From: Nemertoderma westbladi
Lineage: Eukaryota; Animalia; Xenacoelomorpha
Assembly: GCA_032718475.1 (NCBI GenBank)
Contig: JAUCBJ010005279.1
Location: 20,990 to 84,989, forward strand
Direction: 5' to 3'
DNA length: 64,000 nt
Shown: positions 3,948 through 50,683 of the stretch, piece after piece
How positions within the stretch are numbered: position 1 is the stretch's first letter
How the letters are laid out: every line of letters starts with the position of its first letter
Position numbers and translations under genes: made by a program
The notes under the pieces: model-generated
What the model saw: only the letters and a program-made list of their open reading frames with translations
What the model was told of the DNA's origin: nothing
The model's database searches: none

Positions 3948-3957
3948 CCGCTCCATG
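3948..3957 (-). promoter_or_regulatory. Short polypurine-tract-like site of A (CATGGAGCGG) abutting the 3' LTR
   Basis: Identical sequence abuts the 3' LTR of B (48667-48676). Confidence 0.6.
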
Positions 3958-4771
3958 AAAACAGGATATTATCGTGCATAAAATATACGGTTTTCACCAA
4001 TAATCAATCAAACTATAGAATACTTAGGGCGTACTTACATATTTACAATTAAATTTCAAATAATACTTCCTTTCTACGTAATGATTCGATACAAAAATAA
4101 TTACAAATTCAAACTTTACGTATTTAAGGCTTTACTAAGTAAGTACAATATAAATCTAAATTAAATTCACCAATATAAATCTATTGCATCTCAATATTGC
4201 ATAAATTCAAACAATTACAAATACAAATAAATGAAAACAATAAGAAAGGCTCGCGAGTCTTCCATCTACTATTGCATCTCAAATATTGCATAAATTCAAA
4301 TAATTACAAATACTTTCGTACCTAAATGTAGATTGCATAGGTTCGGAATAATTACAAATATGAGTCTTTCTAAGCACAAAACTTTCTAACTATAAAACTT
4401 TCTAAATACAAAATATAACACTTTACAAATGAAACTATAAGAAAGGCCCACGAGTCTTCCATCTACTCTTACTTTCTATTTCACTGTAAATACAAATACT
4501 GCTTATAAGATATAAATTGCATAATATTCGGAACAATATAAATTGCATAAGTTCGGAATAATTACAAATATAAAATATAAATTCTTACAAAATATAAATC
4601 TTTACTAAATATAAATCTTACTAAATATGAGTTCTTATTTCTAAATTTCATAAATTCGGAACAATACAAATTGCTTAAGTTCGGAATAAACACAAATATA
4701 AATATAAATTCAAATAAATCACAAAATCATAAGAAAGGCTCACGAGTCTTCCGTCCACCCTTGCCCTCCCT

Positions 4772-6625: not shown

Positions 6626-7040
6626 ACTATTATCAGAAAATAAGCAGTCAAGAATTAGTAATAAATATAGGGGAGTCTATTTATTGACGTAACTTATTGA
6701 AACAAGACCGTGTAAAATTTAATTAAAAAATTTTTAAGAAAGGCTCGCAAGTCTTCCTCTCTTGTTTCTCTAATTTTTAAGTTCCACCCGACTGTACCCT
6801 GAAATCTATTCACTGGAGAAAATTTTAAAATTTTTCAAATCCAAATGGATTGTCTAAATTTTCGAAAATGTCTCAATATTGTGAGTTCCAAGTAGAATTC
6901 CATTTCTTATACCTACAAATCCCGCTCCTATGTGACACATAAGGGTACCACCCTCAATGTTCACATATAAAGACAATGGAATTCTACCGCTGTCCTTACT
7001 ACGGTGTACAGGTACGTGGAATCTATTTGTAAACTCCTAA

Positions 7041-15891: not shown

Positions 15892-16691
15892 TTCGGTAGT
15901 TGTAAGTCAAGTAAAGTGAGTGTCAAAGTATCGAGTTTACCGTATTTATATCTAAACGGTACTAATTACAGTCATATAAAATTAGCCTACCGACCGATTT
16001 TATAGCAGATGGATAAAATTAGCCTAGACGGCCAATTTTACAGCAAATAAATGTCACGGAATAAGTATATAATAAAATTAGCCTAAACGGCCAATTTTAT
16101 AACAAATAAATCGGATAACGATATGCGTTATCAAAAGGTAAATTAAATACAATAATACGGACTAATTCAGCAATGAACAAAGAAATCATACGGAATGCAT
16201 AAATACTTGAGACAGTGGAACCCACAATAATTTTAACTAATACGGTAATGCCTAACTTATTTATGCAACTTTTCGAACTCACCCACTCCAATAATTCTCC
16301 AGAAAAACAGATTCCCAGATACAAACCGGACGTGAACCTTTCCGTTTTTAACGTTGCGGACGAAGCGCGATTTTCCCAACCAAAGTTGTTGAGTTATCTA
16401 TCTCCCAAACTTGCTAAACACGGTCTTGCTCCCGTTACAGTCTAGAAATGAGTTCTGAATCCTGAAAAACAAAAGAGTTAGGTTTTACTTTTACGAAAAA
16501 TTTTGTACCGGTACAATATGGTATTTAAACCCTTTTAAACACCGGTATTCAATTCCAAAAATATATTTACACGCGGTTCAAATCAAATTTTATTTCAAAA
16601 ATTAGCACTTAGCTAATCAAATACAAATTTTTACCTCAAAATACAAAATTTTCAAATAACTTTAGTCCTACCGAACCGTAGTTCAGTAAAA

Positions 16692-16702
16692 CACATTCCT
16701 AC
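16692..16702 (-). promoter_or_regulatory. Non-tRNA primer-binding site of A (GTAGGAATGTG)
   Basis: Abuts the 5' LTR; lacks TGG; perfect 11-nt complement at 17733-17743 within the LTR. Confidence 0.75.
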
Positions 16703-18591
16703 TATATGGAAGAGACGGTAACAATACCTGCAATATCTTACTGTAAAGTTTGTGAATCAAATCATAAATCCGACCTTCTCACCAAAACAGTAAACTCTAA
16801 GTAAGCGAATATATTGCAGTATCGATCTCTTATAACCGGTGAGGCAGAAAACAGTCTACGAGCAGACAAACTTCGATAAAACAAAACCCCGCGCAGCGAA
16901 TCCTAAAATCAGGCTGACTCACTCACGGACTAAGGGGCTCGTATACTTTGCCGCGGTGTGATTTATATGGTTGGGCGAAAGGGACGCTAGCTAGGTACAG
17001 AGGCAGAGATTTGGAGATGTCTAACTAGCGGGCAAAGCACAGTAAGGACAAAAGTTAATTTTATATATATTTTGAGGTGTAAATAATTTCTAACGCGCGC
17101 GTGTTAATTCTGAACGGTCAAAAGCAGTTTTGCTCCTTCACATATATAATTACTGGGTACGGTGTGCATTTTACGAATATTCTAATTTTGTAACTTGTAG
17201 GTCCAATACTCACGAATGATAAGGTTCCTTCCCCTCTTGCGTATTTCCAGGACTCAAATTCAGGCATAAAGTTAATACTACGCCCAGAATTCGGCAATTT
17301 TAGGTACCAGGTCCCTAATACTGAGAAGAGATGTGTTAGTTTACTACAGTAGGCGTACAGTTACTAATAGCTATCCTGGCGTCCTATCTAGAATTTTAGT
17401 CACCTAGGTAGGCTGGGTAACTTCCTATTAGGGCGTTGGCGGGGACACGGTAGATGTTAGTATATCCCTAATAGCCTCAATTTATTTGCGCCTAGTTGTA
17501 AACTGCCCTACCGCCTGAACGGTACAATCCTAATTCAGGTGAAAACACAATGACCCTCCTAGCCTACAAGTTCTAATGCAATGGACACCGTTGTACGGTA
17601 AATAGTCACAGACGCACCTGTACTTAGCAAGAGTTAAGCGTACAGTTTGCTGCACCCTAACCATTTGTATGCCTTGTACCGGTGTGCCTACGTCCTATTT
17701 GCGTACTAGTATCTCTGCTCTCTCCCTCCCCCGTAGGAATGTGAAGGTCTACTGTGGTTTTTTTCTGAATCAAGACAGTACAGTCCCTAAGATGTAATTT
17801 TAGGCTCACAGCATGTCACTACTTCTACCTTTTGATCTTTGGTCTTACGCTTAGGTAGCAAGGCGTCGAACGCTGTCTAACCTTTCAGGCGATGGGCGAA
17901 TAACTCAAGATGGTATTGCGGGTTGTCTCTTGTCTACATTCCCCTGATGTTCCCGTTCATTGCTGCGGCCCGATCTCTAGCTGGCCATCCTGTTCCTAAA
18001 GGTGTTCACCGTAGTGAATCATGGTGAAAAGAAAGGCAGATAGCGGTATTTCTGAATTTATTGCAGATAATAGTACAAAATGTAGTCTGAAAACTAATGA
18101 CAGAATAAACAAGAAATATAGATTGAAATAATCTGTGTACGCTTGAATGATAACTAATGAACAAATCGCACCTTTATATAGCAAATTTGTGCTGCAATCA
18201 ATCGAGAAAATTCTCGATTGTTCTATAGGTTCTAACAGGTTTTTAAAGATAGCTATTGGTCCAGCTAATATATAACTTGCACGACATTGGTTACAATCAA
18301 ATAACTACAGTCTCATTGGTGCAGACAAATGCAATTTAATTTGTAGCGGTCAATTTAAATGAGTTGAAATTCTGTACAAAAAATAATTCGCACTTACCAG
18401 GATTCGAACTCAATACCTACTACACATATAATTTCCAACGCTCTACCGACTGAGCTACTGAACCACTTGACCAATAGGCGTACAATAGATATAACAAATA
18501 CAAATGAGGACTCAAAGCAATCTTTTACAAAGTTAATTCGAATAAAATAAAATTTTGAAAATCCACGGCATTTAGGGAATATAATTCTATA
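16703..18591 (-). repeat. 5' LTR of element A
   Basis: Direct repeat of 2059-3947; TATATAAAGG near 18171-18180 (sense) with upstream CCAAT motifs. Confidence 0.97.
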
Positions 18592-25571: not shown

Positions 25572-26127
25572 TGTGACGGGATCCAGGAAGGATCCCGATT
25601 TATCCGTTGTTTAATTCACTCGTCCCCGCCGTGTGTATGAAAGGTAAAATAGGGAATCCGTGTCGTTCGTTGTATATATTGACTGATATAGATATATAGG
25701 GTATATAGATATAGGTGTAACTGATATAATGTTGTCGTATACAGAAGGCGGGATACGGTAATTAAAGTCCCGGTCCTTCCCTAGCTAAACTATCTAACCT
25801 AAGCTAGCACCAATATTGCACTGAGATAACTGAATGGAAAGATTACTGCCAACTGGCTATATTGCACGGTTGGCCTTGTTACTCTACCTAATCGATGCCT
25901 TTCCCCCCCTGATTGGTTGATACCCTTGTTGGCGCCCCGTGGAGTGTTCCCGTTCACTCCTCCTGTTCTCTCTGGGTTAGGGGTTTGGCCCCTGACCCTT
26001 ATTGTGTGGTTCTCCTTCCCATTCTCATTGGGATGGCACGAGTTGGTTAATTACCCAATCTCGTGGCTCCCAATATTACTTATCGGCTTAACTTTATGGG
26101 GTGTTAGCGGGATTGAATAAGCTAACA
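25572..26127 (-). repeat. 3' LTR of element C
   Basis: Direct repeat of 55654-56209 (3 substitutions seen). Confidence 0.97.
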
Positions 26128-26835
26128 CTCCCCCCCATGCTATCTTCCCGGTAAGAAGATAGCATCAACCAAAAAGTGCGCTACAATCCCGCTGGATCCC
26201 GATCTAGTATCGGGTGTGGGGTGGAATTCTTTTCTCTCGGAGCCGGCTTTCCAGGCCGCTCCCTATGGGTATGATAACGCTACCCTAATGCCTGGCGTCT
26301 CATGTCGGGCTGATCGCGCTCACCTCTCACGCGACTTTTGTTTCCCCAACACTTTCGCCCTATTTCTTCTCCACTCTCACCCTAACTCTCTCATACCCTC
26401 GGACCTCCTCGTCCCTCACTCAGCCTGTTATTCTCCCCCCCGCACTAGAATTGCGTTCGCACTCTCTCCGCACTTCGCTCTATTACTCCGTCCCTCAACC
26501 CCACTTTGACTATTTCATCCCTCCTGACAAATCTCCCCCCCCCCCCTCTTGTGCCGTCGCACTCAAGAAGTGTGAAATTGTCTGGTGTCTCGTCCATAGT
26601 GCCATAGTCAGTTATCCCCCCAGTCCCAGTAGCTAATTGAGAAAGGTTGTATGACTATAGTACTTACTCCGAACGTATGTATTTTACTGCTAATTACTAC
26701 GTACGTACATACAAATTGCACTTATATGATTATTTGCATTAATTAAATTTGTACTTAATAGTTCGTACGTCCCACGCGGCGCCTTCCAGGCGTACCACGT
26801 CCAAGTCCCAGTTTCTCTCCCTCGGCTCTGGGAGC

Positions 26836-29382
26836 CTATCTGTTCCTCTGGGGATAGTTCCCCCTGGCGTCCCCTTCCCTGGGTCGTTTCTTGGTTACCA
26901 CCGCTCCTCTGGGATCCGCTTTCTGCTTTCGGACCTTCGCCGCCACCTCCCTGCTGATTCCGGTTGTTGGCTCCTTGGGCGCTGGTGTTATTAGTGCCGG
27001 ATACCGCTTCGCAGGTGGCCCCTCAGAGTGGCCCGGTTGTCTCCCTCTGGTGGCGTCCCATAGGATCATCTTTATTGCTTGCGGTACGTGCTCCGCCAAG
27101 AAATCCCTAAACTCCCTTCGGTTCTGTGGCGTCCACCTATCCAAATATCATTGTGTGTTCATCACTCCAGCGTATGATGCCGCCGTTGCTACCTCTTGGT
27201 AGGTAAACGGTAGCCTCCGCTTTATGATTTCCATGTGAGTCTCCTGATTGATAAGGAAGAAACCCCACTTGAACTCCTGGGCCTTCATGCGCTGGCGCGT
27301 CATAGCCCCGACGTCGGCCCACTCCTCGAATCTTGCGAACTTTTCCTCGTCGTCCATCCAATCGCACTGGCGTCCGTAGTGTCCTCGAAAGTGGCACTTT
27401 GGACATCGGTTATGTAACCGTGGACACGCCCCCATCCTGTGGCTCGGCTCTCAGCAGTAGAGACAAAAGGTTCCCTTCTGGAACCGGTACAAGCAGCTCC
27501 TTTCCTGGTGGGTCTGTCTCCCACAGTAGTCGCAGCCGAGTACCAATGTCTCCCGTCCCACCTCGTCCTTCGTCCCAAGCGATCTCCGCGGTCTGTGGAG
27601 TCGCTGGTAGGCAAACTTCTCCACATTAGTGTCTCTATCTACGTCGATCTCCCCGCCCCTCTCGGGCATCGTCTCCCCGAATACTATCCGTGGTGCCGTC
27701 CCCGGTTGCTCGCCCAACCTGATAGTGCTCCCCGCGAAATCCATCGCCGGCTCCTCGTGCACCCAGGTCCGCTTGCCGGATCTGTTCCAGAAGGCCCTCG
27801 CCCCACTGGCCGTCACCACCCTTCCGCCAACCCAGTCCGTGTCCGAGTGGCCTATCCTCTCGATGGGCGGCATCTCTCCGAACTCGTCGTCGTCCTCCTC
27901 CTCTTCTCGCAGTGGTTCCAACCTCGGTATCCTGGTGGACCCACTATGTCCCTTCCCGCCTTGGCTCTCGCCCGTAGCTCTCCATCCCTCTAGCTCCCTC
28001 AACTTCCTCGGCGGTTGTTCGCCCTCGGCGCCCGCTGGTATGGGCATCTCTTGCAACCCCGACGTCGACTGTTTCGGCGATCCCACCGTCCATCCCAATT
28101 CTCGCCCTAGAGACTCCCCCGAACTCCCTGACGAAGTCCAATAAAGTTCGTCTAGGCCCGCCTGTTCCTCGAAGCCGTAACTCTGCGTCCTCGCCTCCTC
28201 TTCCCTCTCCTCTGCTTCTATCCTCTCCCGTCTAGCGACTTCTTCCAGTCGCTTTGCTTCTCGTCTGTCCGTCTCTAGCTGCTTCCATCTCTGATACGGC
28301 GTATCTGTCTCCCCGTCTACCAGATGTCGGCTGTTGTAGTACACCGACTCGCCCTTCAGCCCCGGGTGGTCTACCAGACCGTCGAAGGCCGTTTTAAAGG
28401 CTCTCCTGTAGCTTAGGTGTGATCCCGATAACAGAAATGCCCCTGGTTCCCTCTCGATAACCACGGTCATAAATAAGTTAAGCAAACTTATCATCATCCA
28501 ATCTTCCTGCAAGATATATCGCTTCTGATATACCTTTATCGCTCCTCTGCGGAACTGATATACCTCTTGCTTTCCCGGTCTCGCTCCCCACTTTAGCGAG
28601 TTCGCTAGTTCTGCTCCGTATTCTTCCCTGAACTTCCCCCAGTCCATCGGTTTGTGGCATACGAGCCCCAATAGTTGGCCCATTGCCACCGCCCCGCACT
28701 GGCCTGTGTTTCCGACTACCCCCAACCCATCCGGTGCCGTCATAGCCATAAAGACCTTCTGCATGTCCAGGAGGTTGGTGGCGTCCGGACCGATGATTCT
28801 CTCCGCATCCTCGCAAATTGCCGATCCCACTTTCGTCGTCGACTTCTCTCTTACCAAGACTTGTACCGCTTTCGGTAACCGATTTAATTTCAGCCCGTCC
28901 TTCTTCCCATATGTTCCTAGATCGAATAAGAAAATGTCCCCATTTGGCGCGGCCAAATGTAGGAGTATGGTACTGGCCGACCCCGCTGATCCTCGTCTCG
29001 AACCCGCCTCGTCTTCCACGGTTCCCTCGTCGTCTAGGATCATATATCCTCCCCTGTTGACGGACTCTATGAATCTCTTCCAGTCCTTCCTCGGTGATTC
29101 CCTCGGGTACTTCGGAATCCCGAACCTAGCCTCGTCCCCTTTCACCACATTGTGGAAGTGTTGGAAGATCGCGTTGTCCACCGACGGCGTCCCATAGGTC
29201 CCAACCAGCCGCTGTTCGTGCATCTCTCGGAAGTGATCCTGCAGCGCACGTGCCGCGTGACCCCTTTCCAACCTCTCGTAGTATCCTCTCGTCTTCTCTT
29301 CCAGATGCCTCTCGGTGAAATCCACCAGTATCTCCTTTCCTCCCGACTCCGCCTTTCTCTTTCTGATCAACTTACTCGCCAT
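26836..29382 (-). pseudogene. Accessory ORF3 of C: DEDDy (WRN/RNase D/EXD-like) 3'-5' exonuclease + three CCHC knuckles; two premature TGA codons
   Basis: ExoI YMILDDEG, ILLHLA..IFLFDL, LPKAVQVLV..KVGSAICED (ExoII), QKRYILQED (ExoIII-like); CDYCGRQTHQERSC, CLYC*EPSHRMGAC, CPKCHFRGHYGRQC. ORFs 27451-29391, 27148-27435 and 26836-27144 share one frame (849 codons from ATG 29382). Confidence 0.8.
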
Positions 29383-29874
29383 TCCGAACACTACACTCGC
29401 TCACCTGCAAGGTGGTGCCTTACCAAGGCGCAATACAGATGAGTGATGTATCTAGGATGTTCTGTACGGTTCGATAATGGCCTATTTCTACTTAACTGCG
29501 CCTTTTAACCTAAATTTATTACTAATTAATCTTGAAGCTAGTAAATGAGCCTAATTTACAATTTCTGTCCGTTACATTTATTATGTTCTAGAACAACTTT
29601 CCTTGTGTTGCCATTATTTTGTAACTTTCAGCCCTATTCTATTTATTTATCTATTTATTTTAATTCTACTGTCCTACTACTTACTATTACCTATGGATTA
29701 TTCTATTCTTTAATCCACATTCTGGCCTACTCTGTGGGCCTGTGCAGTACAGCAGTATGCGTCGTGTGGCCACACGATTTACCCAGCTGTATTCATATGC
29801 CCCCCTCTCGCTACTAATGCTACTTACTGCTAACTAATATCTATATCTTATATACCCTTCTACCTCTTACTCTC

Positions 29875-30630
29875 TCTCTCTCTAACTAACGGTACTACGT
29901 ACCCTCTAACTCTTCTCTAACTAACTAGCGGTACTTACGTACCCTCTAACTCTAACTCTTCCCTAACTAACGGTACTACGTACCCTCTAACTCTTCTCTA
30001 ACTAACTAGCGGTACTTACGTACCCTCTAACTCTCCTCTAACTAACTAGCGGTACTTACGTACCCTCTAACTCTAACTCTTCTCTAACTAACGGTACTAC
30101 GTACCCTCTAACTCTAACTCTTCTCTAACTAACGGTACTACGTACCCTTTAACTCTAACTCTTCCCTAACTAACGGTACTACGTACCCTCTAACTCTTCT
30201 CTAACTAACTAGCGGTACTTACGTACCCTCTAACTCTCCTCTAACTAACTAGCGGTACTTACGTACCCTCTAACTCTAACTCTTCTCTAACTAACGGTAC
30301 TACGTACCCTCTAACTCTAACTCTTATCTAACTAACGGTACTACGTACCCTCTGACTCTAACTCTAACTAACTAGCGGTACTTACGTACCCTCTAACTCT
30401 AACTCTAACTAACTAGCGGTACTTACGTACCCTCTAACTCTCTAACTAACTAGCGGTACTACGTACCCTCTAGCTCTCTAACTAACTAGCGGTACTACGT
30501 ACCCTCTAACTCTCTAACTAACTAACTAACTAGGTACTACGTACCTCTTAACTAACTTCTCTAACTAGGTACTACGTACCTCTTAACTAACTAACTAACT
30601 AACTAGGTACTACGTACCTCTTAACTAACT
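29875..30630. repeat. Tandem array of 19 units (~35-42 bp), each with a GGTAC-(T)TAC-GTACC hairpin and CTAA runs
   Basis: Counted 19 cores from 29891 to 30606. Confidence 0.95.
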
Positions 30631-30768: not shown

Positions 30769-33700
30769 CTAAGGTGCCCCTTCTAATAGACAGCATTTCC
30801 CTACAGCTCTCCTGTAGGTTTTTCTGTCCTTCGCACCTATCTTTCCACCTATCCGCACTTCTACCGATCGGACTCTTCCGTCCTCATCGGAGTAAGTGCC
30901 TACAACTCTCGCCAACCGCCACTGGTTGTTGATGATAGTATCATCCGTAACGATTACGAGATCTCCTACTCTTAACTCCCTGTTCGGCTTCTTCCACTTG
31001 CTTCGCTTATGGAGCGTGGGTAGGTATTCTTCTACCCACCTCCTCCAATACTCTGCGCTTATTGCTTTAGCGACTTTCCAACTCTGGCGGGAGTGTATGT
31101 CATCTGGGTCTACACCCCGCATATCGATGGTCGCTGGCCTTTCCATCAGAAAGTGGCTAGGCGTCAGCACGTCTAATGACTCAGGGTCATCATTCTCTGG
31201 ATATAGCGGTCTGCTATTAATGATCCCCTCGCACTTCGCAAGCACTGTCCGTAAGACGTCTTCAGTGACCATGTGGGTGTTCATTAACTTCGTCATTAGA
31301 TGCTTTGAACTGCCCACCAGTCTCTCGACGCATCCTAGTGTATGTGGTGCATACGGCGTCCTTCTCTCCCACTTTACTTGTCGTCGTCTCATGGCCGCCC
31401 TGACTTCCTCCCCTTCCAAGATGTCCAAGGCCTCTGCCATCTCACTCTCTGCGCCCACAAAGTTGGTGCCGTTGTCGCTGTATATCACTGCGATCGTCCC
31501 ACCTTTGCGGTCTCTAAACCTTTCTAAGGCATTAATGAATGCTGATGCGGTTGCATCTTGGGCGAGTTCTATCCCTACCGCCCGTGTGTTGTTGCATACG
31601 AAGATAATGCCGTAGCGTTTCTCCGTGTGTCGCATCACTTTGATCTTTATCGGCCCGAACATGTCCACACCGCAATGCTTAAATGGCGGGTCGTGCTGTC
31701 TTACCCTACTCGCCGGTAGTGGTGCCATCTCCTGTACGGCTCGCTCCTTCTTCGCTCGTCGGCAGGTCTGGCACTGCCCCACTACCGCTTTTACCTTCTT
31801 TCTCAGTTGTTTGACCCAATAGGTCCTCCTTATCTCTGTGAGGGTTCGGTTGGTGCCCCCATGCAAAATCGATTTGTGGGAGTCCCAGATAATCTGGTGG
31901 ACTATTGGCGATCCTGTGGGAATGATGATGGGTTTCGGTGGTACGGCTATGCTATTGTTATATCCCACCCTAGAATTCATTACTAGAATCCCATCGTCAT
32001 TGAGTTGTGGCGACAGCGTAATCAGCTCGCTGTCCCGTCGGAGGTGCTGTTGGTTACCGACGCGTTCCACCTCGTCGCCGTAGTTCTTCCGTTGTTCATA
32101 GCGGATCACTGCCTTGGCCGCTCCTTCCAGATCTATGGTTGTCCTGATCTTCTTGTCCTTGCCAACACTCGCGAGGAAATTCCCGAAAGCTCTCCAGTAC
32201 GCCACTAGTTTCTTGGTCTTATACCAACTAGAACTGTAGCTGAGGAGTTTATCCGTCGGGTTATCGCACAGTTCTCGTCCTGGTTGCACGTCCCTAATCT
32301 CCCTCACCATCTGGGAGTACATCTCTTCTCCCTCTGAATCTCCCTCTTCTCCCTCCGAAACTACTTCTGAGCCCGGCTCCACTCTTCTCATCGGCGGCCA
32401 GGCCTCCTTATTGCTCAGAAATCGTGGCCCATGTTGCCACAATACTTCCTTCTTCAAGAAAGTGTGGCGTTCCACGCCCCTCGACAGCAAGTCCGCTGGG
32501 TTCTCGTCTGTTGGGCAGTAGTGCCACCTTTCCAGTTCTGTGGTCGCCCTTATTTCGTCCACTCTATTCGCGACAAATATCGGGTATCTTGTCCTTTCGT
32601 TATGTAGCCAACCAAGCACTACCATGGAGTCCGTCCAGTAGTGTGTCTCCACTATGTTGGGAATAGTATCCACTAGGTAGGCTGTGGCTCTAACTCCTAG
32701 TCTCGCAGCTGTTAATTCCAACTTGGGAACAGATGCTGAATCTGGCGGCGTCGACTTTGCTTTGCTAAAGGCTAGTCTGGGCTTGTGAGCCCCCCCTCGT
32801 TGTACTAAATAGAGTGCTGCTCCGTACGCCTCCAACGACGCGTCGGAGAACATGTGTAGGTCCAGATTCGTCATGTTCCCATCCGGGAAATACACTCGTG
32901 GCATGTTGTATGTTCCCATCTTCTCCAAGTCTCCTGTCCACTTGCTCCACTGTTTCTTGATTTCCTCTGGTACCTCTACGTCCCACTCATCCTTCAATTT
33001 GTATACTCTCTTAAGTATCTGTTTCCCTGTGACTAATAATGGGGATGCTAGGCCTAGGGGATCGTATATCCTTGCTATATACGATACATAGCCCCTCTTC
33101 ATATGGGTGTCTGCACCCTCCTGGCTCAGCTGATACTTCAGTTCGTCTGTCTCTCTATCCCACACGATTCCCAATGCCTTCTGTTGAGATTGTGTTCTCT
33201 TATTCGCCATGTCCTGCCCTTTGACTGTTGTTGGATTATCCATGGTCGATTCTGGCCTCTTGTCTTCTATTGCCTTGATAAATTCTTCCGAACTGGATTG
33301 GAATTTGGTCAGGTTAAAGCCGGATCCTTTTAGGATGTCGCGAACCTCGCGCCCTGTGTCCAGTATCTCCTTAACCGTATTCCCAGACTCCATTCCGTCA
33401 TCTACGTAGAAGCCGCGTCGAATCATATCGATGGCCCTACTGCTGTATCTATCTTCCTTCCCTTTCACTGTGTCTCTCACTGCCATAGTCGTCGTAAATG
33501 AAGACGACTTGGCCCCCATGTTTTGTACTACCATCTTGTATGCCGGTATTATCGACGGTTCTTCCTCGCCGTTATACCATAAGAAGCGTTGACTGTCGCT
33601 ATCTTCCTCCGTTACACGGACTTGGTTGAACATGCCTTCTATGTCACACGTGAAGGCGTGTTTCCCGTTTCTAAATCTAAGTAGCACCTCTATGCCCGAA

Positions 33701-34393
33701 TTGTATATGTTTGGGCCTTCTAACAGGTAGTCGTTTAAGCATTTTCTGACGGTCTTTGCCGATGCGTCGACTACCATCCTTAGTTTACCTTTCTTTGGGT
33801 CTAAAGCCACGTGGAGTGGCAGGTAATATGTCCTGTCCGTGTTCGGTTCGTCGACCGGTAACTCCACGGCCCATCCTTTCTCGACGTACTTCTTAATCGT
33901 TCTGTGGATGTACTCATTCTTCTCGGGGCTCCGTTTTAGTGTTTGTTTTAGCTTGCGGAGTCTCGTGAGTACCATCCCCGCCCTCTATTATCGGGCAGCG
34001 GCATCTTCGGTAGTTTCCATACCATTCCTATAGTATACCGCCCCTCATCGCATGTCATCGATTCCTCCACGCTTTGTAAAGCCTGCTTATCTTCTACCGA
34101 GGTCCCGACCCCGGTCTCTTTCAGTCCCTCGAAATCTTGTCTGAGCAGTCTTTTAAGCTGCTCCTCTGCTCCCTCATCACCCATTTCCTGCATTGTTCCT
34201 GCGAACATGCATCCTGATGTCTCCGACATCCTAAACTCAGCGTCCACCCGAATGGTGTCAATATCGCCACCGGGTCACACTGCTTGTCTTCGCCGAAGAC
34301 CGTTTGCATTATTTTGTGGGCCGTCGGGCAGTCCATTCCTACTATGATGGATATCTTCCTAACGTCCACATCTGGGATTGAGAAGTCAATGTC
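30769..34393 (-). pseudogene. pol: pol of C (end of protease, RT, RNase H, integrase); two frameshifts before the 1068-aa ORF 30769-33975
   Basis: FTCDIEGMFNQV, YVDD, FSDAS, PKLEL, WTDS, NPADL, HKSILH..CQTC, GVDMFGP, SDNGTNF, VERLV; frame rejoins gag across B (FLD-DI-DFSIPD). Confidence 0.95.
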
Positions 34394-34522
34394 TATAGAA
34401 TTATATCCTCATAAAAGCCGTGGATTTTCAAAATTTATTTTTGTTGGAATAAACTTGTTATAAAGATTACGTTAAGTTCTCATTTGTATTTACCATTGCT
34501 ATTTGTACAAGGTTACTCAAGT

Positions 34523-34606
34523 GGTTCAGTAGCTCAGTCGGTTATGTGTTGGAAATTTGTCCAGAAGGTATCGTGTTCAAATCCTAGAAGGTGCGAATTG
34601 TTTTTT
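34523..34606 (+). ncRNA. tRNA-derived A box / B box / T6 cassette in U3 of LTR B; second copy 48806-48889
   Basis: TAGCTCAGTCGG (34530-34541), GTGTTCAAATCC (34573-34584), TTTTTT (34601-34606). Confidence 0.65.
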
Positions 34607-34739
34607 GTGCTGAATTTTCAATTAATTCAAATTAACCTCTACGATTTAAATTGATAGTAACAATGTATGATTTGACTGAATCATTGTACGAATACATTAT
34701 ACAATGTACGATTTAAATTGCATTTACCCGAGTGATTAA

Positions 34740-34905
34740 CCAATATAATTGCAGTTATATGATAGTAACCAATGTCGTGCAAGTTGTGAGTTGTTGGACC
34801 AATGGTTATCTTTAAAAACCCAATATAATTATAGAATGTTCTCGATTGTTTGCAGCACAAATTTGCTATAAAAGGTGCAGTTTCGTTCATTAGTTATTCA
34901 ATCTC
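34740..34905 (+). promoter_or_regulatory. Probable Pol II promoter of LTR B (several CCAAT motifs + TATAAAAGG at 34867)
   Basis: Motifs are positionally conserved in A; transcription start inferred near 34890-34900. Confidence 0.55.
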
Positions 34906-36376
34906 AATCACACAAAAACACAATTATTCTGAGTTATCTGATATTTGTTTATTCTGTCATTAGTTATTTCAGATTACATTTTGTATTAGTATTAATCTGC
35001 AATAAAATTCAGAAATACCGCTATCAGCCTTTCTTTTCACTATGATTCACTACGGTGAACACCCTTAGGAACAGGATGGTCGGCTAAAGATCGGGCCGCA
35101 GCAGTGAACGAGAACATCGGGGGAATGTGACCAGGAGACCACCCACAACATCTATTAGAGTTATTCGCCCATCGCCTGAAGGTTAGACAGTGTTCGATGC
35201 TTTGCTACCTAAGTGTAAGACCTAAGATCGACGGTAGGAGCAGCGACACACTGTACGCCAAAAGTTAAATTAAGATCTGTATTATCCTGATTCTCGGAAA
35301 ACCAGCAGAACCCCTTCATATTCCTACGGGGGGAGAGGAGGACAGAGGAAAGTTAGAGATACCTGTACGCAGATAAGACATAGGCACACCAGTACATGGC
35401 ATGTAAATTGATAGGGTGCAGCAAAACTGTACGCCTAGCTCATTGTCAGGTATAGGTGCGCTGTGTGTCTTGTCAGCAGTACACGGTATTTGTTGCTTGC
35501 GTTGGAACTTGTAGGCTAGGAGAGGGTTGTTGTGTTTTCCCTGAATTGTGATTATACCATTCAGGCGGTAGGGCAGTTTACATGCTAGGCGAAAATAAAT
35601 TGAGGCTATTAGGGATACTAACATCTACCGTGTCCCCGCCAACGTCCTGATAGGAAGTTACCCGGACTACCTAGGTGACTAAAATTCCAGATAAGAGCCA
35701 GGATAGCTATTCGTAACTGTACGCCTACAGTAGTAAACTAACACATTTCTTCTTAGTATTAGGGACCTGGTACCTAAAATTGCCGAATTCTGGGCGTAGC
35801 ATTAACCCTGGAAATACACAAAAGGGGAAGGAGCCTTATCATTTGTAAGTATTGGACCTACAAGTTACCAAAATATTAGAATATTTGTAAAATAAACGCC
35901 GGACCCAGTAAATGAGATTATATGAAGGATTAAAACCAATTTTGATCCAAGAATTAACAAATTCGCGTGTTTAGGAATTATTTACACCTCAAAAAAATAT
36001 AAAATAATTTGTTCACTCTGCTGCTTTGCCTGCTAGTTATATTTGTAGCTAGCGTCTCTCTCACCCACCATATAAATCACACCGCGGCAAAGTATACGAG
36101 CGCCCTTAGTCCGTCAGTGAGTCAGCCCGATTTTAGGATTCGCTGCGCGGGATTTTTGTATTACCGAAGTTTGTCCGTTCGTAGACTGTTTTCTGCCTCA
36201 CCGGTTAAAAGAGACCAATACTGCGATAGTTTTGCTTACTTAGAGTTTACTGTTTTGGTGAGAAGGTCGGATTTATGCTTTGATTCACAGACTCTATAGT
36301 ATGATATTGCAGGATACGTATTTGGGTTTCTCACATCAATAGGAATGTGTACCTTTGTTCGTGTCTCTTCCATTTA

Positions 36377-36389
36377 GTAGGAATATGAA
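36377..36389 (+). promoter_or_regulatory. Non-tRNA primer-binding site of B (GTAGGAATATGAA)
   Basis: Abuts the 5' LTR; perfect 13-nt complement TTCATATTCCTAC at 35315-35327. Confidence 0.75.
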
Positions 36390-37180
36390 TTACTGAACTA
36401 CGGTTCAGTAGAACAAAATTATTTGAAAATTTTGTATTTTGAGGTAAAAATTTGTATTTGATTAGCTAAGTGCTAATTTTTTGAAATAAAATTTTGATTT
36501 GAAACGCGTAAAACATTTGGAATTAAATACCAGTGTTTAAAAGGGTTTAAATACCATATTGTACCGGTACAAAAAATTTTCGTAAAAGTAAAACCAAACT
36601 CTTTTGTTTTTCAGGATTCAGAGCTCATTTCTAGACTGTAACGAGAGCAAGACCGTGTTTCACGAGTTTGGGAGATAGATAACTCAACAATTTTGGTTGG
36701 GAAAATCGCACTTCGTCCGCAGCGTTGGAAACGGAAAGGTTCACGTTCGGTTTGTATGTGGGAATCTGTTTTTCTGGAGAATTATTGGAGTGGGTAAGTT
36801 CGAAAAGTTGCATTAATCAGTTAGGCATTACCGTATTAGTTAAAATTATTGTGGGTTCCACTGTCTCAAGTATTTATGCATTCCGTACGATTTCTTTGTT
36901 TATTGCTGAATTAGTCCGTAATTATTTGTGTTAATTTACATTTTGATAACGTATATCGTTATCCGATTTATTGTTATAAAATTGGCCGTTAGGCTAATTT
37001 TATTATATACTTATACCGTGACATTATTTGCTGTAAAATTGGCCGCTAGGCTAATTTTATCCATTTGCTATAAAATCGGCCGGTAGGCTAATTTTATATG
37101 ACTGTAATTAGTACCGTTAGATATAAATACGGTAAACTCGATACTTTAACACTCACTTTACTTGACTTACAACTACTGAA

Positions 37181-40100
37181 ATGAGTGACAAACAAGACTA
37201 TACGAAGAATACACCTACCGACTATGACTCATGTGACGCGAAGTCAGCAGCGGAAGAACAACAGGGGAAGACACGTGAGCCTACCGAACCTACACCGTGT
37301 GCGTCACCAGTACATCCAACGGGAGTACCGGATGCCGTAGTACGAGGTGACGGCAGGACCGAGGACTTTCTAACTGTTCCGCAACCTAGATATAGGGAAA
37401 CGGACATGGTAAGTTCAGCAGGAAGCCAGGACAGCGTAGTTAGAAGCGTCGGAGGATACATGGCGCATATTACCAAGAGTATTGGAGAAGGACAACGCAT
37501 ATTAGGCGAGTTGACCGCTCCGATGTCCCGATTCGAGTTCTACACTCTACAGGTAAGAGTACAAAGTAGAGTACATAAGTCCGTAGATAACTTAGTCAGC
37601 CTACAAGATCTAGCTAGACAAAGACAGGATGCGGACACGCAGTATCGAATCCTCGAGAAACTAATGATCGCTAGGGAGAAACTGATTCAGTTTAAGACGA
37701 CCGTTAGGCAGATACAACAAGAGCAAGCGGATCAGTTATTAGGTGAGTCGGTTTCCGACGAGTTGTTACAGCCCGAAGAGGAACAAGAACTGTATCGGCT
37801 GGATGGACAACTGAAACGCCTGACGGATCACTTACGTATGTGCGGCGAGGACGTTGGAGATTGGGAAACCGTACCGGAAGCTACGAAGGAAACTTCACTC
37901 GCACCAATCGAGCTGGCACCAGGAATACTGGATCAATCGCTGGTGAGTATTCGTAGCGAAATCGGCGAGGGAAGTATGGTCACGTCAGAAGTTGCTCGAC
38001 AACAGCAACAGTTCTACAGACAACGACGACAAATGGAGGAACAAGCTCAACTTCTAGTGATGCAGGCAGCAGTAGAGGAAGAGAAGCTACGCATTGCGAA
38101 TTTAGCGAGAATCTCTCATCTACAGGAACAAGCTGAATTAGAAGCAGCTGAAGTAGAACGGTTAGAGTTAGACATTGCCCAACAAGCGGCGGCAGCCGAG
38201 TTAGTGCAACGAACTGCAGCAGCCGAGTTAGAGCGACAAGCGGCAGCGGCAGCGTCAGAGTTAGAGCGACAAACGGCAGCGGCGGAGTTAGAAAGGAAAA
38301 GGTTAGTTTCAGAAGCACGAGCCGAAATGAAAACATGGCAAATAAAAGCCCAATCAGCTATACGACAAGCGGAGTTTGAGGCGCAACGACAACAAACGGA
38401 ACAACGAGAGAAGGGAGTTAAACTTCGTTTCGAACTCGAGAAGAAGGTGAGAGAATTAGCGAACGCCGAGGAAGATCTGGATCAAAAGGCCCGCGATCGA
38501 TCGATGAGATCTCGAGACGGACATGATTTGGACCAGATAGAGGTAAGACATCGCCAAATTCAGGAACGGAAGAAGGAAGGAAGCGTAGGAGCACCCGGAC
38601 GGGAACGACAATTAGTAAAAGACTTGTGTCAACGATTTCCACAAGTAACTCCTATGTTTGCACCGATTATGACTAAGGAACCTGTTTCGATTGCCGGTAG
38701 TAGTAATATTTCTCCTATCCATGGTGCGACGGAACACAGGTTGGTAATTCCGGACAAATTCATACCGCCAAGAGCAACGTCGTTGCCTATTTTAAAAGTC
38801 AAGGTAAGTAACCCACCGAATACCGATCGTAGTAGTTTATTGACCAGACCTGCGCTACTGACAACTAAACAGGTGAGTCCACCTTCGACACCGAAACCCG
38901 TTACGCACTACACTTACCCAATGACGTTTCGGCCTACAAGGCCAGTCGATTCAAACGCTACCACACGACCACCGTTTAAAAAGCGTACATCGCAATCTAC
39001 GACTTCGAGGAAGACTTGTGAGCCTACCGAACAACGGAGACCAGTGGATACGCGACCGTTTAACCAGATTACATCGCAATCTACGACTTCGAGGAAGACT
39101 TGTGAGCCTACCGAACGACGGAGACCAATAGACGATGTTCCGAAGCGGAACGTTAGAATTCGAACGACGCAATGGACGCGAGCACGTCGACCACCGTATC
39201 CAGGTGACAGTAGTACTTCGAGTGAATCGGATTACCCGAAACGCGAGGTATTTAGAACAGGGGCGGCCGATGAATACAAACGCGAGCGTTCAGACAACTC
39301 CTTTGTAGACAATCCTCCACGAAATACACCAACACAGAACGCGTTACAACCAACAGACGCAATTAGTACACAACAGTTCGCCAACATTCTGCGACCAGTT
39401 GTTAACAAGTTGGCTCAGATTGAGGAACGTCTGGAGGAAGTTCAAACGGATAGTTCAAGGAACACCGAATTCGAACACAATAGACACCCGAAGGATCAGC
39501 AAAGACCAATACCTTCGAGAAACACACCGTATCAGGGAAAAGCGCCAAGAAGGGACATCAACCAGATTACCAACCAAGGACGCGAAACTCTGAACGTTGC
39601 CGAGGAAATAGCGAAATTCGCAGCTAGACAAGGACTACCGGTGCAACAACCACCTAAGTTTTCCAGTAGCTCAAAACACTGGCACACTTACGTAGACTAT
39701 ATCGAATCTCAGATCGCTGTGTGCGCCTTTACATCACGGGAGAAGTTTAATTACCTGCTTCAAACGTTGTCGGGAGAACCCAAACGTTTGGCGGAGACCT
39801 TCGTTGGTGTACCGGACGCCTTCGAACTAGCGTACGATCGCTTAACTTCGATCTACGGAGGTACAGTCAGCATGGCCAGGTCAGTGATAGAGGAACTCTG
39901 TAAGGGAGGGGCTATTACTAAACCCGTCGACTTATTGAAACTAGCTGACGAAATAAAGAACGCTATCACTACATTAAGATCTATTGGACAGCTTGACTAC
40001 GGAAATACCCCTACAGTCCTATTAAAGATCATAGGACGACTCCACCATCGACTTCGTCGGGAGTGGAGGAAGATCGAATACCAGCGGGAAGAGCGAGGTG

Positions 40101-43100
40101 GATTCTTAAAACTGGAGGATGTATACCTTTTGATATTCAGGGAAGCAGTGGTAGAGACACGATCTAACTACACTGACCAACACATCGTAGCCGAAGGAAT
40201 CACCTTGCCATCCTCAAACCGACAAAAACCCCAGACAACATCCACCAAGACGGCCACTTACGCCACACCGACAGAAACACGACAATTCTCGGACGGTAGT
40301 AGGGTATCTGCGCCCATTGGAATAAAACAGACTAGACAGCAACTCAGTACAGACTTCAGCGGCTGCCAATACTGCGAGCATTTAGGCAAGCGGTATACCG
40401 GTCACAAGTTGAGAGGTTGTCGACAGTTTCGCGAGTTAAACTCGGAAGAACGACGGCTGCAGATACGGCCATTGGACTCTTGTTGGCGGTGTACGCGACA
40501 CGGACACGTCCGCAAAGATTGCCCAAATACCGACACTTGTCCATCCTGTGGACGCAACCACGACGGTCTGCTCCACACAGACAGCCACACGCCGACAAAA
40601 CGCTTCGCCAGGGAACACCCGGAAGCTGCAGCAAAATGCAACACCGCGTATAATAATCGAGAATCGAAAACGACTCCAACTTTCGTGACACATATTAAGG
40701 ATTGCTTCTCAGAACAATCCGGATCGTCGGACGAAGAGTCAGAAGACGACGACGTATATTCGGATGGAGACAAACAACCATCGATCGCGCTTCTGACAAC
40801 TGACCAACTAAAAGGTTTCAGTGTAATTCCGATTAAGATTACTGGCACAAAAGGGAGCAAGAGAATCTACGCTATTCTAGATTCAGCCTCATCTCACAGC
40901 TACGTGGATGAGAAGGTAGCTGATGTCGTCACCGATCTCAGACAAGGTAAGCATGTTAGTTACACCGTAAGTAGTATGCACGGACAACGTGCAATACCAG
41001 TGACGCGAGTTAAGTTAAACTTAGACACTCTTCTTCCGAAATCGCAACATAGCGAGAAGGAGAGGTCTTTGTTGCCCTTCAAGGATTTAACCTTTGCGGC
41101 CACAAAAGACTTTAGTATCTTACTAGGTCCAGTGCCGGAACAATCCTTGGAGGACCGTAAGTACTTCAGACACCTTGGTGTACCTGAATGTCCTGTCAAT
41201 TATAGATCGGTAGCAATGCTGATCGGGACAGATCAATTCAACCTACATCAAGTGTGGGAAACCAGACCATCGGTAGTCGTAGCAGGAAGTGCATACGCCT
41301 GCAGAACGCCGATAGGTTGGTTTACTCGAGCGCCTGTGCGCACACTAGACATAAGTGATGAAGAGGATGAAGTACAAAGTACATGTAGTTTATTAACTAC
41401 AAATTCAATTCATTCCTTTTCACACGACCGAGACTATACTACCTTGCGTACAAAACACAACAAAGTGACCAGTACGACGTGTGTAACAAATACCATAAGT
41501 CACAAGGAGCAGCAAATCCACCAGGTGAGTTTAGAACTTGGGGAGAAGACGAGTCAGCCAGAGATTCCATCGACGACAGATGATAACGCCGGAAGGCTTG
41601 CGAGTCTATCTACACCAATAACCTCAACAATGCCCGTCGATATAGATGACGACACGTTAAGAAATCATCAAGTGGAACAAGCTGCACTGGACAAAGAATT
41701 AACGGAGAAGACTATCAGGTGGTTAGAACAAGATACAGCTGAACCTGGTAGCTACGAACCGTGTATGTCGGAACAAGAGAAACAATCTTTAAAGATCATG
41801 GAAGATACTATCCGCCAGATGAAAGACGGACATTATGAGGTAGGGATGTTATGGCGCAGCCAAAGTCCCAAACTTATTAACAATTATCCGCTAGCTTTAA
41901 GACGCTTAAAATCAATATGGCAACGTCTATTATAGGACGAGAAAGCCCATCTGCAGTATAATACCCAGATGGAGACGTATTTGACCAAGGGGTACGCTAT
42001 CCGAATGACTAACCCAGAGATTGTAACAGACCAGACATACTACTTACCACATCACTACGTGAGACATCCCGACAAACCAGACAAAGTACGTGTAGTCAAT
42101 GACTGCGCGGCTCTGTTTGAGGGAATGTCCCTCAATAGTGAGTTAATGGATGGACCAAACATGAATAATTATCTTATGGGGGTGATTATGCGCTTCCGTC
42201 AGCGTCAAGTAGCCTTTACTTGTGACGTCGAAGCTATGTTTCACCAAGTGAGAGCGTTAGAGCAAGACAGAGACAGTTTGAGGTTCCTCTGGTACCCGGA
42301 AGGAGACTTGAGTCTACCACCGGCGACTTACCAAATGCAAGTTCGCGTTTTCGGTGCCAGGGACAGCCCAAACTGTACGATGTATGCCCTAAAACAAGCC
42401 GCTAGGGATCAGAAACATATATATGACCCAGAGATAATCAAGATCGTAGAACGTGACTTTTACGTAGACGACTGATTACAGAGTTGTGACACAGTAGAAC
42501 GTGCTATAACAGTAGCACAATTACGGGACTGTTTAGTGGGCGGAGGTTTTAACCTCACCAAATTCGCCTCAAACAGTGCCGAATTGGTAGACTCATTCGG
42601 AACGACTGAGCGTGGAGGTGGTGACATTGACCTAGAGTTCGAACCACTACCGACGACCAAGGTGTTGGGGCTCTTTTGGGACCCAAACACGGACAACTTT
42701 CGAGTGAAGGTGAGACTGGACACTCAAGAAAACACTCTGACAAAGAGGTCCTGCTTGTCAAAATTGAGTCGATTGTTCGATCCATTAGGATTCATCAGTC
42801 CAATAATACTGCAAGCTAGTATTTATATGCGCAGTATTTGGAAGGATGGACTGACATGGGACGAGCCGATCTCATTTGAACAAGTGGACTTATGGAAAAC
42901 CTGGGAGGCACAGTTATCTTCACTAGAGGATTATTCCATACCCAGAGTCTACTTTCCATTACAAACGACGTTTCCTGACAACTTGGAATTACATTGTTTT
43001 TCCGACGCCAGTGACAACGGCTTTGGTGTGGCAGCGTACTTGCGCAGACAAGTAGACTCAGACGAGTTCGATGTGTCGCTCATTACTTCTAAGGCTAAGA

Positions 43101-45883: not shown

Positions 45884-46294
45884 TTAGGAGTTTACAAATA
45901 GATTTCCACGTACCTGTACGCTGTAGTAAAGACAGCGGTAGAATTCCATTGTCTTTATATGTGAACATTGAGGGTAGTACCCTTATGTATCACATAGGAG
46001 CGGGATTTTGTAGGTATAAGAAATGGAATTCTACTTGGAACTCACAATATTGAGACATTTTCGAAATTTTAGACAATCCATTTGGATTTGAAAAATTTTT
46101 AAAATTTTCTCCAGTGAATAGATTTCAGGGTACAGTCGGGTGGAACTTAAAATTAGAGAAACAAGAAGGGAAGACTTGCGAGCCTTTCTTAAATTTTATT
46201 AAATTTTACACGGTCTTGTTTCAATAAGTTGCGTCAATAAATAGACTTCCCTATATTTATTACTAATTATTGACTGCTTATTTTCTGATAATAG

Positions 46295-48246: not shown

Positions 48247-48676
48247 AGGGAGGGCAAGGGTGGATGGAAGACTCGTGGGCCTTTCCTATTGTATTGTTCT
48301 AAATTTATGTAATTGTATTGTTCCAAATTCATTGCACAGAACTTATGCAATTTATATTTAGGCACGAAAGTATTTGTAATTTTTTGAATTTATGCAATAT
48401 TTGAGATGCAATAAATTTATGCAATATCGAGATGCAATCGATTTATATTGGTGAATTTAATTTAGATTTATATTGTGCCTACTTAATAAAGCCTTAAATA
48501 TGTAAAGTTTGAATTTGTAATTATTTTTGTACCGAATTATTACGTAGAAAGGAAGTATTATTGTTTGAAATTTAATTTGTAAATATGTAGGTACGCCCTA
48601 AGTATTCCATAATTCGATTGATTATTGGTGAAAACCGTATATTTATGTACGATAATATCCTGTTTTCATGGAGCGG

Positions 48677-50678: not shown

Positions 50679-50683
50679 ATGTC

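What the first reader, a model, noticed from the sequence alone, without database searches (positions are those of the whole stretch)
26836..29382. BEL element with a DEDDy 3'-5' exonuclease-zinc knuckle gene in the env position: candidate primer-maturation enzyme
Seen: an 849-codon frame with ExoI/II/III-like motifs, an acidic linker and three CCHC knuckles. Established: DEDD-type exonucleases have been reported in some nematode and bdelloid rotifer LTR elements, so the capture itself has precedent. Inference: here it co-occurs with an internal self-complementary primer. In C, poly(A)-signal-like hexamers (AATATA 25675-25680, ATTAAA 25610-25615, sense) lie downstream of the primer, so the RNA's 3' R copy would contain it. 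A single-strand 3'-5' exonuclease could trim back to the duplex and leave a 3'-OH at the LTR edge. Alternative: degradation of host small RNAs.
Basis: partly seen in the sequence, partly recalled or inferred. Interest (0 to 1): 0.72.

Follow-up and report, generated by a model that had tools for sequence, protein, structure and literature searches.

The report
Self-priming BEL retrotransposon with exonuclease gene
A young BEL/Pao jumping gene carries a third gene, broken by two stop codons in this copy, for a likely RNA-trimming enzyme joined to three zinc knuckles; it probably starts copying itself with its own RNA, but two neighbouring relatives show the same self-pairing with no detectable enzyme domain, so the enzyme is probably not what makes the primer.

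Summary
Element C is a complete BEL/Pao retrotransposon (556-bp LTRs, 3 differences, 5-bp target duplication) with another BEL nested in its pol. The '849-codon frame' has two in-frame TGA stops (codons 644, 745). Many other copies differ at those codons, and differences in the N-terminal domain are 12 of 13 synonymous, so the gene is real and under selection. That domain is probably a divergent EXD2/WRN-like DEDDy exonuclease. Support is Atlas features, motif order and a glocal alignment; Pfam, HMMER and structure tests were blank or inconclusive. Its ExoIII motif is atypical. Self-priming is well supported: the PBS pairs with the element's own LTR in all three BELs here, with compensatory changes. 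The trimming model is not supported. A poly(A) signal downstream of the primer fits a Tf1-like cut equally well. The bases just 3' of the primer are predicted to be paired, and the 3' copy folds its primer into a hairpin. Elements A and B have the same primer architecture and a strongly conserved knuckle-only third gene with no detectable exonuclease. The scan earlier noted self-priming BELs, and exonuclease-knuckle third genes in gypsy elements, on other DNA.

The parts
55654..56209 (-). Element C 5' LTR, 556 bp, TG...CA; target-site duplication ACAAA outside both LTRs
   Evidence: 3 differences from the 3' LTR
55840..55848 (-). Self-primer segment TTTAATTAC (LTR nt 362-370); second copy in the 3' LTR at 25766-25758
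   Evidence: compensatory change at 55844 among other copies
55645..55653 (-). PBS GTAATTAAA, directly abutting the LTR end, no TGG start
   Evidence: variant at 55649 restores pairing with the variant at 55844
55829..55839 (-). Bases just 3' of the primer (LTR 371-381), predicted to pair with LTR 498-507 (55712-55703)
   Evidence: fold; no variant of 8% or more listed in either arm
55692..55701 (-). Second partner of the primer, overlapping the ATTAAA hexamer (3' LTR copy 25619-25610)
   Evidence: fold; 3 of 3 listed variants in it keep pairing with the primer or its variant
55856..55870 (-). Segment upstream of the primer (LTR 340-354), predicted to pair with 55636-55624 downstream of the PBS; suggests an internal primer
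   Evidence: best of 540 LTR 16-mers; 2 of 2 listed post-PBS substitutions keep pairing
50633..55190 (-). gag and protease of C (frameshift near 52400; further stop near 55190)
   Evidence: DUF1759 and Asp_protease_2; frames
34394..50678 (+). Element B, a second BEL nested in C's pol (TSD ATGTC); 13-nt self-complementary PBS 36377-36389 pairs with 35315-35327; knuckle-only third gene from about 46600 to 48213
30769..34393 (-). pol of C: RT (YVDD), RNase H region, integrase, DUF5641; frameshifted near its start
29863..30626 (.). Tandem array (41-nt unit, 19 copies) between pol and ORF3
26836..29382 (-). ORF3 of C, 848 codons plus stop, with two internal TGA stops
   Evidence: selection
28453..29100 (-). 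Probable EXD2/WRN-like DEDDy exonuclease domain (D117, E119, D192, Y289, E293/D294)
27364..27534 (-). Three CCHC knuckles; the following ~80-aa domain is also shared with ORF3 of A and B
   Evidence: tblastn E 1.4e-6 and 2.1e-6, 24% identity over 156 columns
27451..27453 (-). In-frame TGA, codon 644
27148..27150 (-). In-frame TGA, codon 745
26128..26136 (-). Polypurine tract next to the 3' LTR
25572..26127 (-). Element C 3' LTR
2059..18591 (-). Element A, relative of B (about 91% identical); 11-nt self-complementary PBS 16702-16692 pairs with 17743-17733; knuckle-only third gene 6220-4772

Best explanation
This is a complete, recently inserted BEL/Pao retrotransposon whose third gene, broken by two stop codons in this copy but under selection in the family, encodes three zinc knuckles joined to a likely EXD2/WRN-type 3'-5' exonuclease, and which likely primes reverse transcription with its own RNA, probably freed by a Tf1-like internal cut rather than by this exonuclease. 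Shown: the element's anatomy, the stops, purifying selection, PBS-LTR complementarity with compensatory changes, and a knuckle module shared with A and B. Inferred: transcription starts upstream of the primer (candidate TATA-like AATATA at LTR 265 and TCAGT at 295). The 5' leader refolds so that nt 362-370 swap from the ATTAAA arm to the PBS, stacked on the 371-381:498-507 helix. RT RNase H would cut at 370/371 and leave a 3'-OH flush with the LTR edge. ORF3 would be a trans-acting accessory protein. Its knuckles would bind RNA and are the conserved core; the exonuclease is a lineage-specific addition that would act on RNA 3' ends. My single best guess for its target is host silencing RNAs (about 0.4), ahead of the element's own RNA or cDNA ends.
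For: Anatomy. Selection: 12 of 13 listed differences in residues 1-360 are synonymous against 0.34 expected (p 2e-5), 7 of 11 in the knuckle region, 3 of 9 in the linker (these are the 33 sense-codon ORF3 rows among the 40 shown, with 616 more not shown). Exonuclease identity: 24 of 30 Atlas hits carry PF01612, best such hit 0.92 with 165 shared features; glocal alignment to 17 bacterial EXD2-like proteins beat 150 of 150 shuffles (z 4.2) and 34 of 34 real-protein decoys at one gap setting; ExoII and ExoIII fall in register in MAFFT. Self-priming: anchored matches of 11, 13 and 9 nt, reached by 0, 0 and 17 of 2000 shuffles. A and B differ by a G-C/A-U compensatory pair. In C's family the only listed variants inside PBS and primer form one base pair (55649 in 83, 89 and 70% of depth, 55844 in 69, 83 and 100%, runs X1, X3, X5). 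The primed fold is only 1.8 kcal/mol above the free fold. In A and B the 20 nt after the primer pair with the U5 end better than all but 7 of 1829 and 4 of 1923 LTR 20-mers. RNase H motifs are present in C's pol. A and B: dN/dS 0.015 at dS 0.51 over 230 codons, and no frame over 149 aa between pol and the knuckles, against about 200 aa for the domain alone.
Against: The fold is not proven. Pfam, NCBIfam and PHROGs gave no exonuclease hit. HMMER gave E=2 and hhalign was at chance (95 of 214 shuffles). The glocal test fell to 7 of 150 shuffles at the stricter gap setting and gave no signal with an RNase D-type profile. The structure matches are circular and weak. ExoIII is atypical, so the domain may be inactive. 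The C duplex alone is weak (-5.0 kcal/mol), and the free fold gives primer:PBS a probability under 0.1. Two of 3 variants in the inner stem (LTR 385-389:490-494) break pairing. The compensatory variants were not shown on the same molecule. A and B carry stops in pol and could borrow an exonuclease in trans. A short stretch before B's knuckles looks faintly like ExoIII by eye but is not significant. No RNA ends were mapped, and nothing here tests the small-RNA target.
Confidence: 0.58

Rival explanations
1. One reading: the exonuclease trims the genomic RNA's 3' tail back to the primer:PBS duplex, and the 3' R copy becomes the primer.
For: The primer has a copy in the 3' LTR upstream of ATTAAA, and related families read AATAAA at that place (loose ends). 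Pairing upstream of the primer (LTR 340-354) fits an internal primer, which the 3' copy always is. Rodriguez et al. raised 3'-end processing of element RNA as a possible role (PMC5408684).
Against: The same layout is required by a 5'-copy cut. The 3' copy is predicted to be locked in the 362-381:498-518 hairpin, so a single-strand nuclease would stop near nt 510-518. A and B self-pair with no detectable exonuclease. Earlier scan notes put exonuclease-knuckle genes on gypsy elements and mention none on self-priming BELs (unchecked leads).
Confidence: 0.1
2. Self-priming by an internal cut, with ORF3 as helper: the knuckles chaperone the switch from the ATTAAA hairpin to the PBS, and in C the exonuclease polishes an imprecise cut.
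For: All 3 self-primed elements here keep a homologous knuckle module, under strong selection in A and B. C has the weakest duplex, a competing hairpin, and is the one with the nuclease.
Against: Gag already has knuckles (for A and B; C gag sequence). Three elements from two lineages are no correlation. Tf1 is reported to use RNase H cleavage (PMC7175516, passage).
Confidence: 0.17
3. The domain is a catalytically dead DEDD derivative that only binds RNA, like Exd1 or Maelstrom.
For: ExoIII reads YILQED rather than YxxxD. Rodriguez et al. cite inactive DEDD derivatives in the piRNA pathway. Dead retrotransposon nucleases appear in earlier scan notes (unchecked).
Against: Acidic residues stand at or beside all four catalytic positions, and rotifer ORF3s also carry an Asp-to-Glu change (DEED). 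This is compatible with the best explanation apart from catalysis.
Confidence: 0.25
4. The N-terminal domain is not a DEDD nuclease, and the motifs are chance.
For: No hit in 1.84 billion representatives, no Pfam hit, hhalign at chance. 4 to 10 in 100 shuffled proteins reach 0.9 in the Atlas.
Against: Atlas features, ordered motifs and the glocal alignment all point to the same family.
Confidence: 0.12

Closest known systems
DEDDy-exonuclease ORF3 of the bdelloid rotifer LTR retrotransposons Juno and Vesta (Rodriguez et al. 2017, PMC5408684; parts 2 and 3 of 5 read, plus passages)
   Same: Non-env ORF3 after pol with a DEDDy-type domain, an Asp-to-Glu change in the tetrad, and untested activity. 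The best PF01612-bearing Atlas cluster is mostly Rotifera (19% of members carry the family).
   Different: The host here is BEL/Pao (the rotifer elements are gypsy-like, recalled). ORF3 here is 848 aa with a charged linker, three CCHC knuckles and a further conserved domain. The change falls in ExoIII rather than giving DEED. The paper does not mention the PBS.
Tf1/Tf2/Tj1 and the Tf1/sushi group; plant Tcn1 and TAR lineages (PMC7175516, PMC4600332, PMC6317226; passages read)
   Same: No tRNA PBS; the PBS is complementary to the element's own LTR and the primer ends flush at the LTR edge.
   Different: These are gypsy or copia, not BEL. Tf1 uses the first 11 bases of its RNA, whereas here the primer appears internal (nt 362 of 556 in C; 849 and 922 of about 1900-2000 in A and B) and has a second partner over the poly(A)-like hexamer.
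Belpaoviridae / BEL-Pao (ICTV profile PMC8742986, whole text read)
   Same: gag-PR-RT-RH-IN order, Pao-specific Pfam families, YVDD, 5-bp TSD, PPT, third gene in the env position.
   Different: The profile describes an 18-nt PBS for tRNA-Arg or tRNA-Gly and an env-like third gene. Here the PBS is self-complementary and ORF3 shows no strongly hydrophobic segment (best 19-mer hydropathy 1.3).
EXD2/WRN-type DEDDy 3'-5' exonucleases
   Same: Strand-ExoI, LxLA...FLF, KVG...D and Q..Y...W order; 16-23% identity to 17 bacterial members.
   Different: Insertions of 10-20 residues, atypical ExoIII, and no significant HMM hit.

Membership tests
BEL/Pao (Belpaoviridae) | LTRs with TG...CA ends, 5-bp TSD and PPT | tested here: met
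BEL/Pao (Belpaoviridae) | PR-RT-RH-IN order with Pao-type domains (Peptidase_A17, DUF1759, DUF5641) and YVDD | tested here: met
BEL/Pao (Belpaoviridae) | 18-nt PBS for host tRNA-Arg or tRNA-Gly (ICTV description) | tested here: not met
   No TGG in the first 6 nt of any of 3 PBSs; self-complementary instead. The host tRNA set was not available. I treat this as a departure from the description: BEL-type by proteins, variant in priming.
BEL/Pao (Belpaoviridae) | Placement in the BEL clade of an RT tree | not tested
   No reference RTs were fetched
DEDDy exonuclease (PF01612; EXD2/WRN type) | ExoI D-x-E after a hydrophobic strand, and ExoII Asp after KVG | tested here: met
   D117-x-E119 and KVG...D192. 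ExoII aligns in every method; the ExoI register varies between aligners.
DEDDy exonuclease (PF01612; EXD2/WRN type) | ExoIII Y-x3-D | tested here: not met
   Y289-x3-E293, with D294 next
DEDDy exonuclease (PF01612; EXD2/WRN type) | Significant profile match or DEDD fold | tested here: inconclusive
   Atlas 0.92; glocal z 4.2 and 2.1; Pfam none; HMMER E=2. The model built with EXD2-like rows (pLDDT 51) matches DEDD domains at Z 3.7-4.5, rmsd 4.0-7.0, 139-172 aligned, but this is circular.
DEDDy exonuclease (PF01612; EXD2/WRN type) | 3'-5' exonuclease activity | not testable with these tools
   Needs an assay
Tf1-type self-priming | PBS complementary to the element's own LTR, flush with the LTR end, with covariation | tested here: met
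Tf1-type self-priming | Primer is the extreme 5' end of the RNA | tested here: inconclusive
   Start site not mapped; predicted pairing upstream of the primer argues for an internal primer
Tf1-type self-priming | Cleavage by the RNase H of RT | not testable with these tools
   RNase H motifs are present; cleavage needs an assay
Tf1/sushi group | Ty3/gypsy chromovirus pol | tested here: not met
   Pao-type Pfam families: works like Tf1, is not a member
Rotifer Juno/Vesta DEDDy ORF3 | Separate ORF3 between pol and the 3' LTR | tested here: met
Rotifer Juno/Vesta DEDDy ORF3 | DEED tetrad, and clustering with the rotifer transposon-borne exonucleases | tested here: inconclusive
   The tetrad here is D-E-D-E/D; rotifer sequences were not in hand for a tree; Atlas lead only

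The most novel reading that the evidence does not exclude
A BEL lineage has replaced both the tRNA primer and env. Its RNA holds an internal primer that switches between a poly(A)-signal hairpin and the PBS, and its third gene is a dedicated priming factor: knuckles that drive the switch in every member, with an exonuclease that finishes the primer's 3' end in the member with the weakest duplex.
Probability: 0.15. Interest if true: 0.85.

Novelty: new variant of a known kind. Interest (0 to 1): 0.55.

Why it matters
BEL/Pao elements are described as tRNA-primed with an env-like third gene (ICTV profile). Here three elements show covarying self-complementary primer sites, and their third genes share a knuckle module, with an exonuclease-like domain in one lineage only. 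This extends Tf1-like priming and rotifer-type DEDDy cargo to BEL. It also gives a natural comparison (C versus A/B) that separates the two traits and makes the open question of what retrotransposon exonucleases do testable. I found neither trait reported for BEL in the searchable library. I recall, unverified, that a C. elegans BEL-type element has a 3'-5' exonuclease domain; the paper I tried was not held. That would lower the novelty of the capture itself.

Tried and rejected
Homologue searches for ORF3 found nothing: word-index searches with 643 aa and 360 aa, phmmer over 1.84 billion representatives, PDB sequences, phage tblastn, metagenome and viral contig scans, and scan notes by sequence. 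A metagenome scan with C's RT also found nothing, so the exonuclease-versus-PBS correlation could be tested only on the 3 elements in the window. No whole genome is held. No RNA holder was listed, and only contigs could be laid, so start and poly(A) sites were not mapped; run X6 (RNA by guess) did not cover the leader. The single-sequence AlphaFold model was useless (pLDDT 34), and its fold search returned only helical bundles. Profiles from 29 short RNase D-type proteins, 11 mixed ones and all 40 gave no signal; the file named 'EXD2like' in those scripts turned out to hold the RNase D-type set, and the true EXD2-like set is the 17. One hhalign script timed out. In one search the R-helix probabilities printed as 0.0 came from wrong partner indices; the structures in that output show the helix. 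A splice-junction primer, suggested by earlier notes, was rejected here because the primers are contiguous in genomic DNA in A, B and C. TGA recoding was rejected: other breaks in these elements are TAG or frameshifts, and many copies differ at the two codons. An env role is unlikely because there is no strong hydrophobic segment. The Atlas search of A's knuckle module gave only leads under 0.9 (fungal DUF8363 and AIR2-like knuckles). The tRNA-like boxes in the A/B LTR gave no ARAGORN or Rfam hit. The primary Tf1 papers and a Tf1 review were not held, so details of Tf1's R-U5 pairing are recalled. No supplements were read.

Full report
The element. Self-comparison shows three BEL/Pao retrotransposons in the window. 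C runs on the minus strand from 56209 to 25572, with 556-bp TG...CA LTRs that differ at 3 positions and a target duplication ACAAA. B (34394-50678, plus strand) is inserted in C's pol. A (18591-2059) is about 91% identical to B. Pfam finds Peptidase_A17, DUF1759, DUF5641, RT and integrase families. C's pol is about 36% identical to A/B in the RT region, so the window holds two lineages.

The reading frame. Contigs from 4 public runs show that the family is high-copy and that many copies differ at both stop codons: 62, 62 and 100% of depth in X1, X3 and X5 for the first, 47, 67 and 100% for the second. Of the 40 difference rows shown (616 more were not), 35 lie in ORF3 and 25 of those are third positions. 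Among the 33 sense-codon rows, 12 of 13 in residues 1-360 are synonymous, 3 of 9 in the linker and 7 of 11 in the knuckle region. The gene is therefore kept by selection.

Is it a DEDDy exonuclease? Probably (about 0.85), but this is not proven. No homologue was found in any collection and no family model hit. The ESM Atlas gave 24 of 30 hits with PF01612; the best such hit scored 0.92 and was a mostly rotifer cluster in which 19% carry the family, while the three top hits had no family. I fetched bacterial PF01612 proteins as references. Against 17 EXD2-like ones, HMMER ranked ORF3 second among 728 targets but at E=2, and hhalign was at chance. A glocal profile alignment beat 150 of 150 shuffles (z 4.2) at one gap setting and 143 of 150 at another, and showed nothing with the RNase D-type profile. 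The alignments place KVG...D192 on ExoII and Q..Y289...W295 on ExoIII, with E293 at the catalytic Asp position and D294 beside it; D117-x-E119 follows a hydrophobic strand. A model folded with those references as alignment reached pLDDT 51. Its top 12 Foldseek rows were EXD2 (E 0.16-1.5) and its top 13 VIA rows were DEDD exonuclease domains (Z 3.7-4.5); this is circular and only shows compatibility.

The primer. All three elements have a PBS that starts GTA flush with the LTR and is complementary to a site inside the LTR: 11, 13 and 9 nt, reached by 0, 0 and 17 of 2000 shuffles and by 8 of 12725, 2 of 12270 and 28 of 13212 internal positions. A and B differ by a compensatory pair. Among other C-family copies, 19 variant rows were listed over 291 bases; the one in the PBS (55649) and the one in the primer (55844) are partners in the same base pair, and both are majority variants in 3 runs. 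Linkage on one molecule was not shown. This is what one expects if the PBS is copied from the primer in each cycle (inference). [quoted passage not shown]

The RNA context argues against trimming. In C the free leader folds the primer and the next 11 nt onto LTR 498-518, an arm that contains ATTAAA; forcing primer:PBS costs 1.8 kcal/mol and gives a junction with the 371-381:498-507 helix and a U5 hairpin. All 3 listed variants in the arm keep pairing, one being compensatory with 55844; 2 of 3 variants in an inner stem break it. LTR 340-354 pairs with bases after the PBS (best of 540 windows), which suggests the primer is internal rather than at the 5' end. In a 3' copy ending at nt 535-556, the primer is held in the hairpin, so a single-strand exonuclease coming from the tail would meet duplex near nt 510-518, not at 370. 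In A and B the purine run after the primer pairs with the U5 end.

The internal control. ORF3 of A and B matches C's knuckles and the domain after them (E about 1e-6, 24% identity) and is strongly conserved between A and B (55 synonymous and 4 non-synonymous differences in 230 codons). Pol stop to first knuckle is 1233 bp in B against 3235 bp in C, no frame there exceeds 149 aa, and no frame scores as exonuclease. So 2 of 3 self-primed elements lack a detectable nuclease.

Mechanism. Most likely the RNA starts upstream of the primer, the leader refolds to pair primer and PBS, and RT RNase H cuts at the junction (inferred by analogy with Tf1). ORF3 is an accessory RNA-binding protein whose constant part is the knuckle module; the exonuclease-like domain is an addition in C's lineage (or was lost in A/B's) and would act on RNA 3' ends in trans. 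Counter-silencing is my best guess for its job and is untested; a helper role in priming, or a dead binding domain, remain open.

Known and new. [quoted passage not shown] I found no BEL or nematode case in the library (passages in PMC3118150, PMC554778, PMC9094657, PMC11662393 and PMC13524379) and no self-priming BEL (listings, plus passages of PMC6317226 and PMC4600332). Most subscription papers are not searchable, and my recollection of a C. elegans case is unverified. Earlier scan notes, which are unchecked, report self-priming BELs in other genomes and Rrp6-like exonuclease-knuckle third genes in gypsy elements; none combines them. Verdict: a new variant of a known kind, interest 0.55; the specific primer-trimming claim about 0.1.

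Noticed in passing
window 18591/16703, 3947/2059 (A); 34394/36376, 48677/50678 (B): The LTRs of A and B are 1.9-2.0 kb and end TA...TA instead of TG...CA, with clean 5-bp TSDs.
   Followed up: partly
window about 18470-18390 (minus); 34520-34600 (plus): A tRNA-like A box and B box followed by a T run lie inside the A/B LTR; possibly a Pol III unit. No ARAGORN or Rfam hit.
   Followed up: partly
window 16689-16670 (minus); 36390-36409 (plus): A hairpin with a cUACGg loop follows the PBS of A and B, with a pairing-neutral change between them.
   Followed up: no
window about 36340-36350: B's U5 has an extra PBS-like stretch (TAGGAATGTG) that A lacks; C's ATTAAA arm is likewise a second PBS-like partner of the primer.
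   Followed up: partly
window 4772-6220 and 46600-48213: The knuckle-only third genes of A and B are under very strong purifying selection (dN/dS 0.015); no homologue was identified; A has a deletion of about 100 bp near the gene's start relative to B.
   Followed up: partly
window 29863-30626: A 41-nt tandem array with a near-palindromic core lies between pol and ORF3, with many length variants among copies.
   Followed up: no
window 27148-27150: About half of the depth in run X1 and a third in X3 do not show the listed difference at the codon-745 stop, so a sub-lineage with this stop may have spread.
   Followed up: no
window 25836-25902: Contigs in X5 and X6 skip 67 bp of the LTR upstream of the primer; the ends are not splice-like.
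   Followed up: no
window 22167-22889; 60608-62330; 59111-60274: A fibrinogen-C-domain ORF, an RT fragment with DUF6451 (probably non-LTR), and a 142/77-bp satellite.
   Followed up: no
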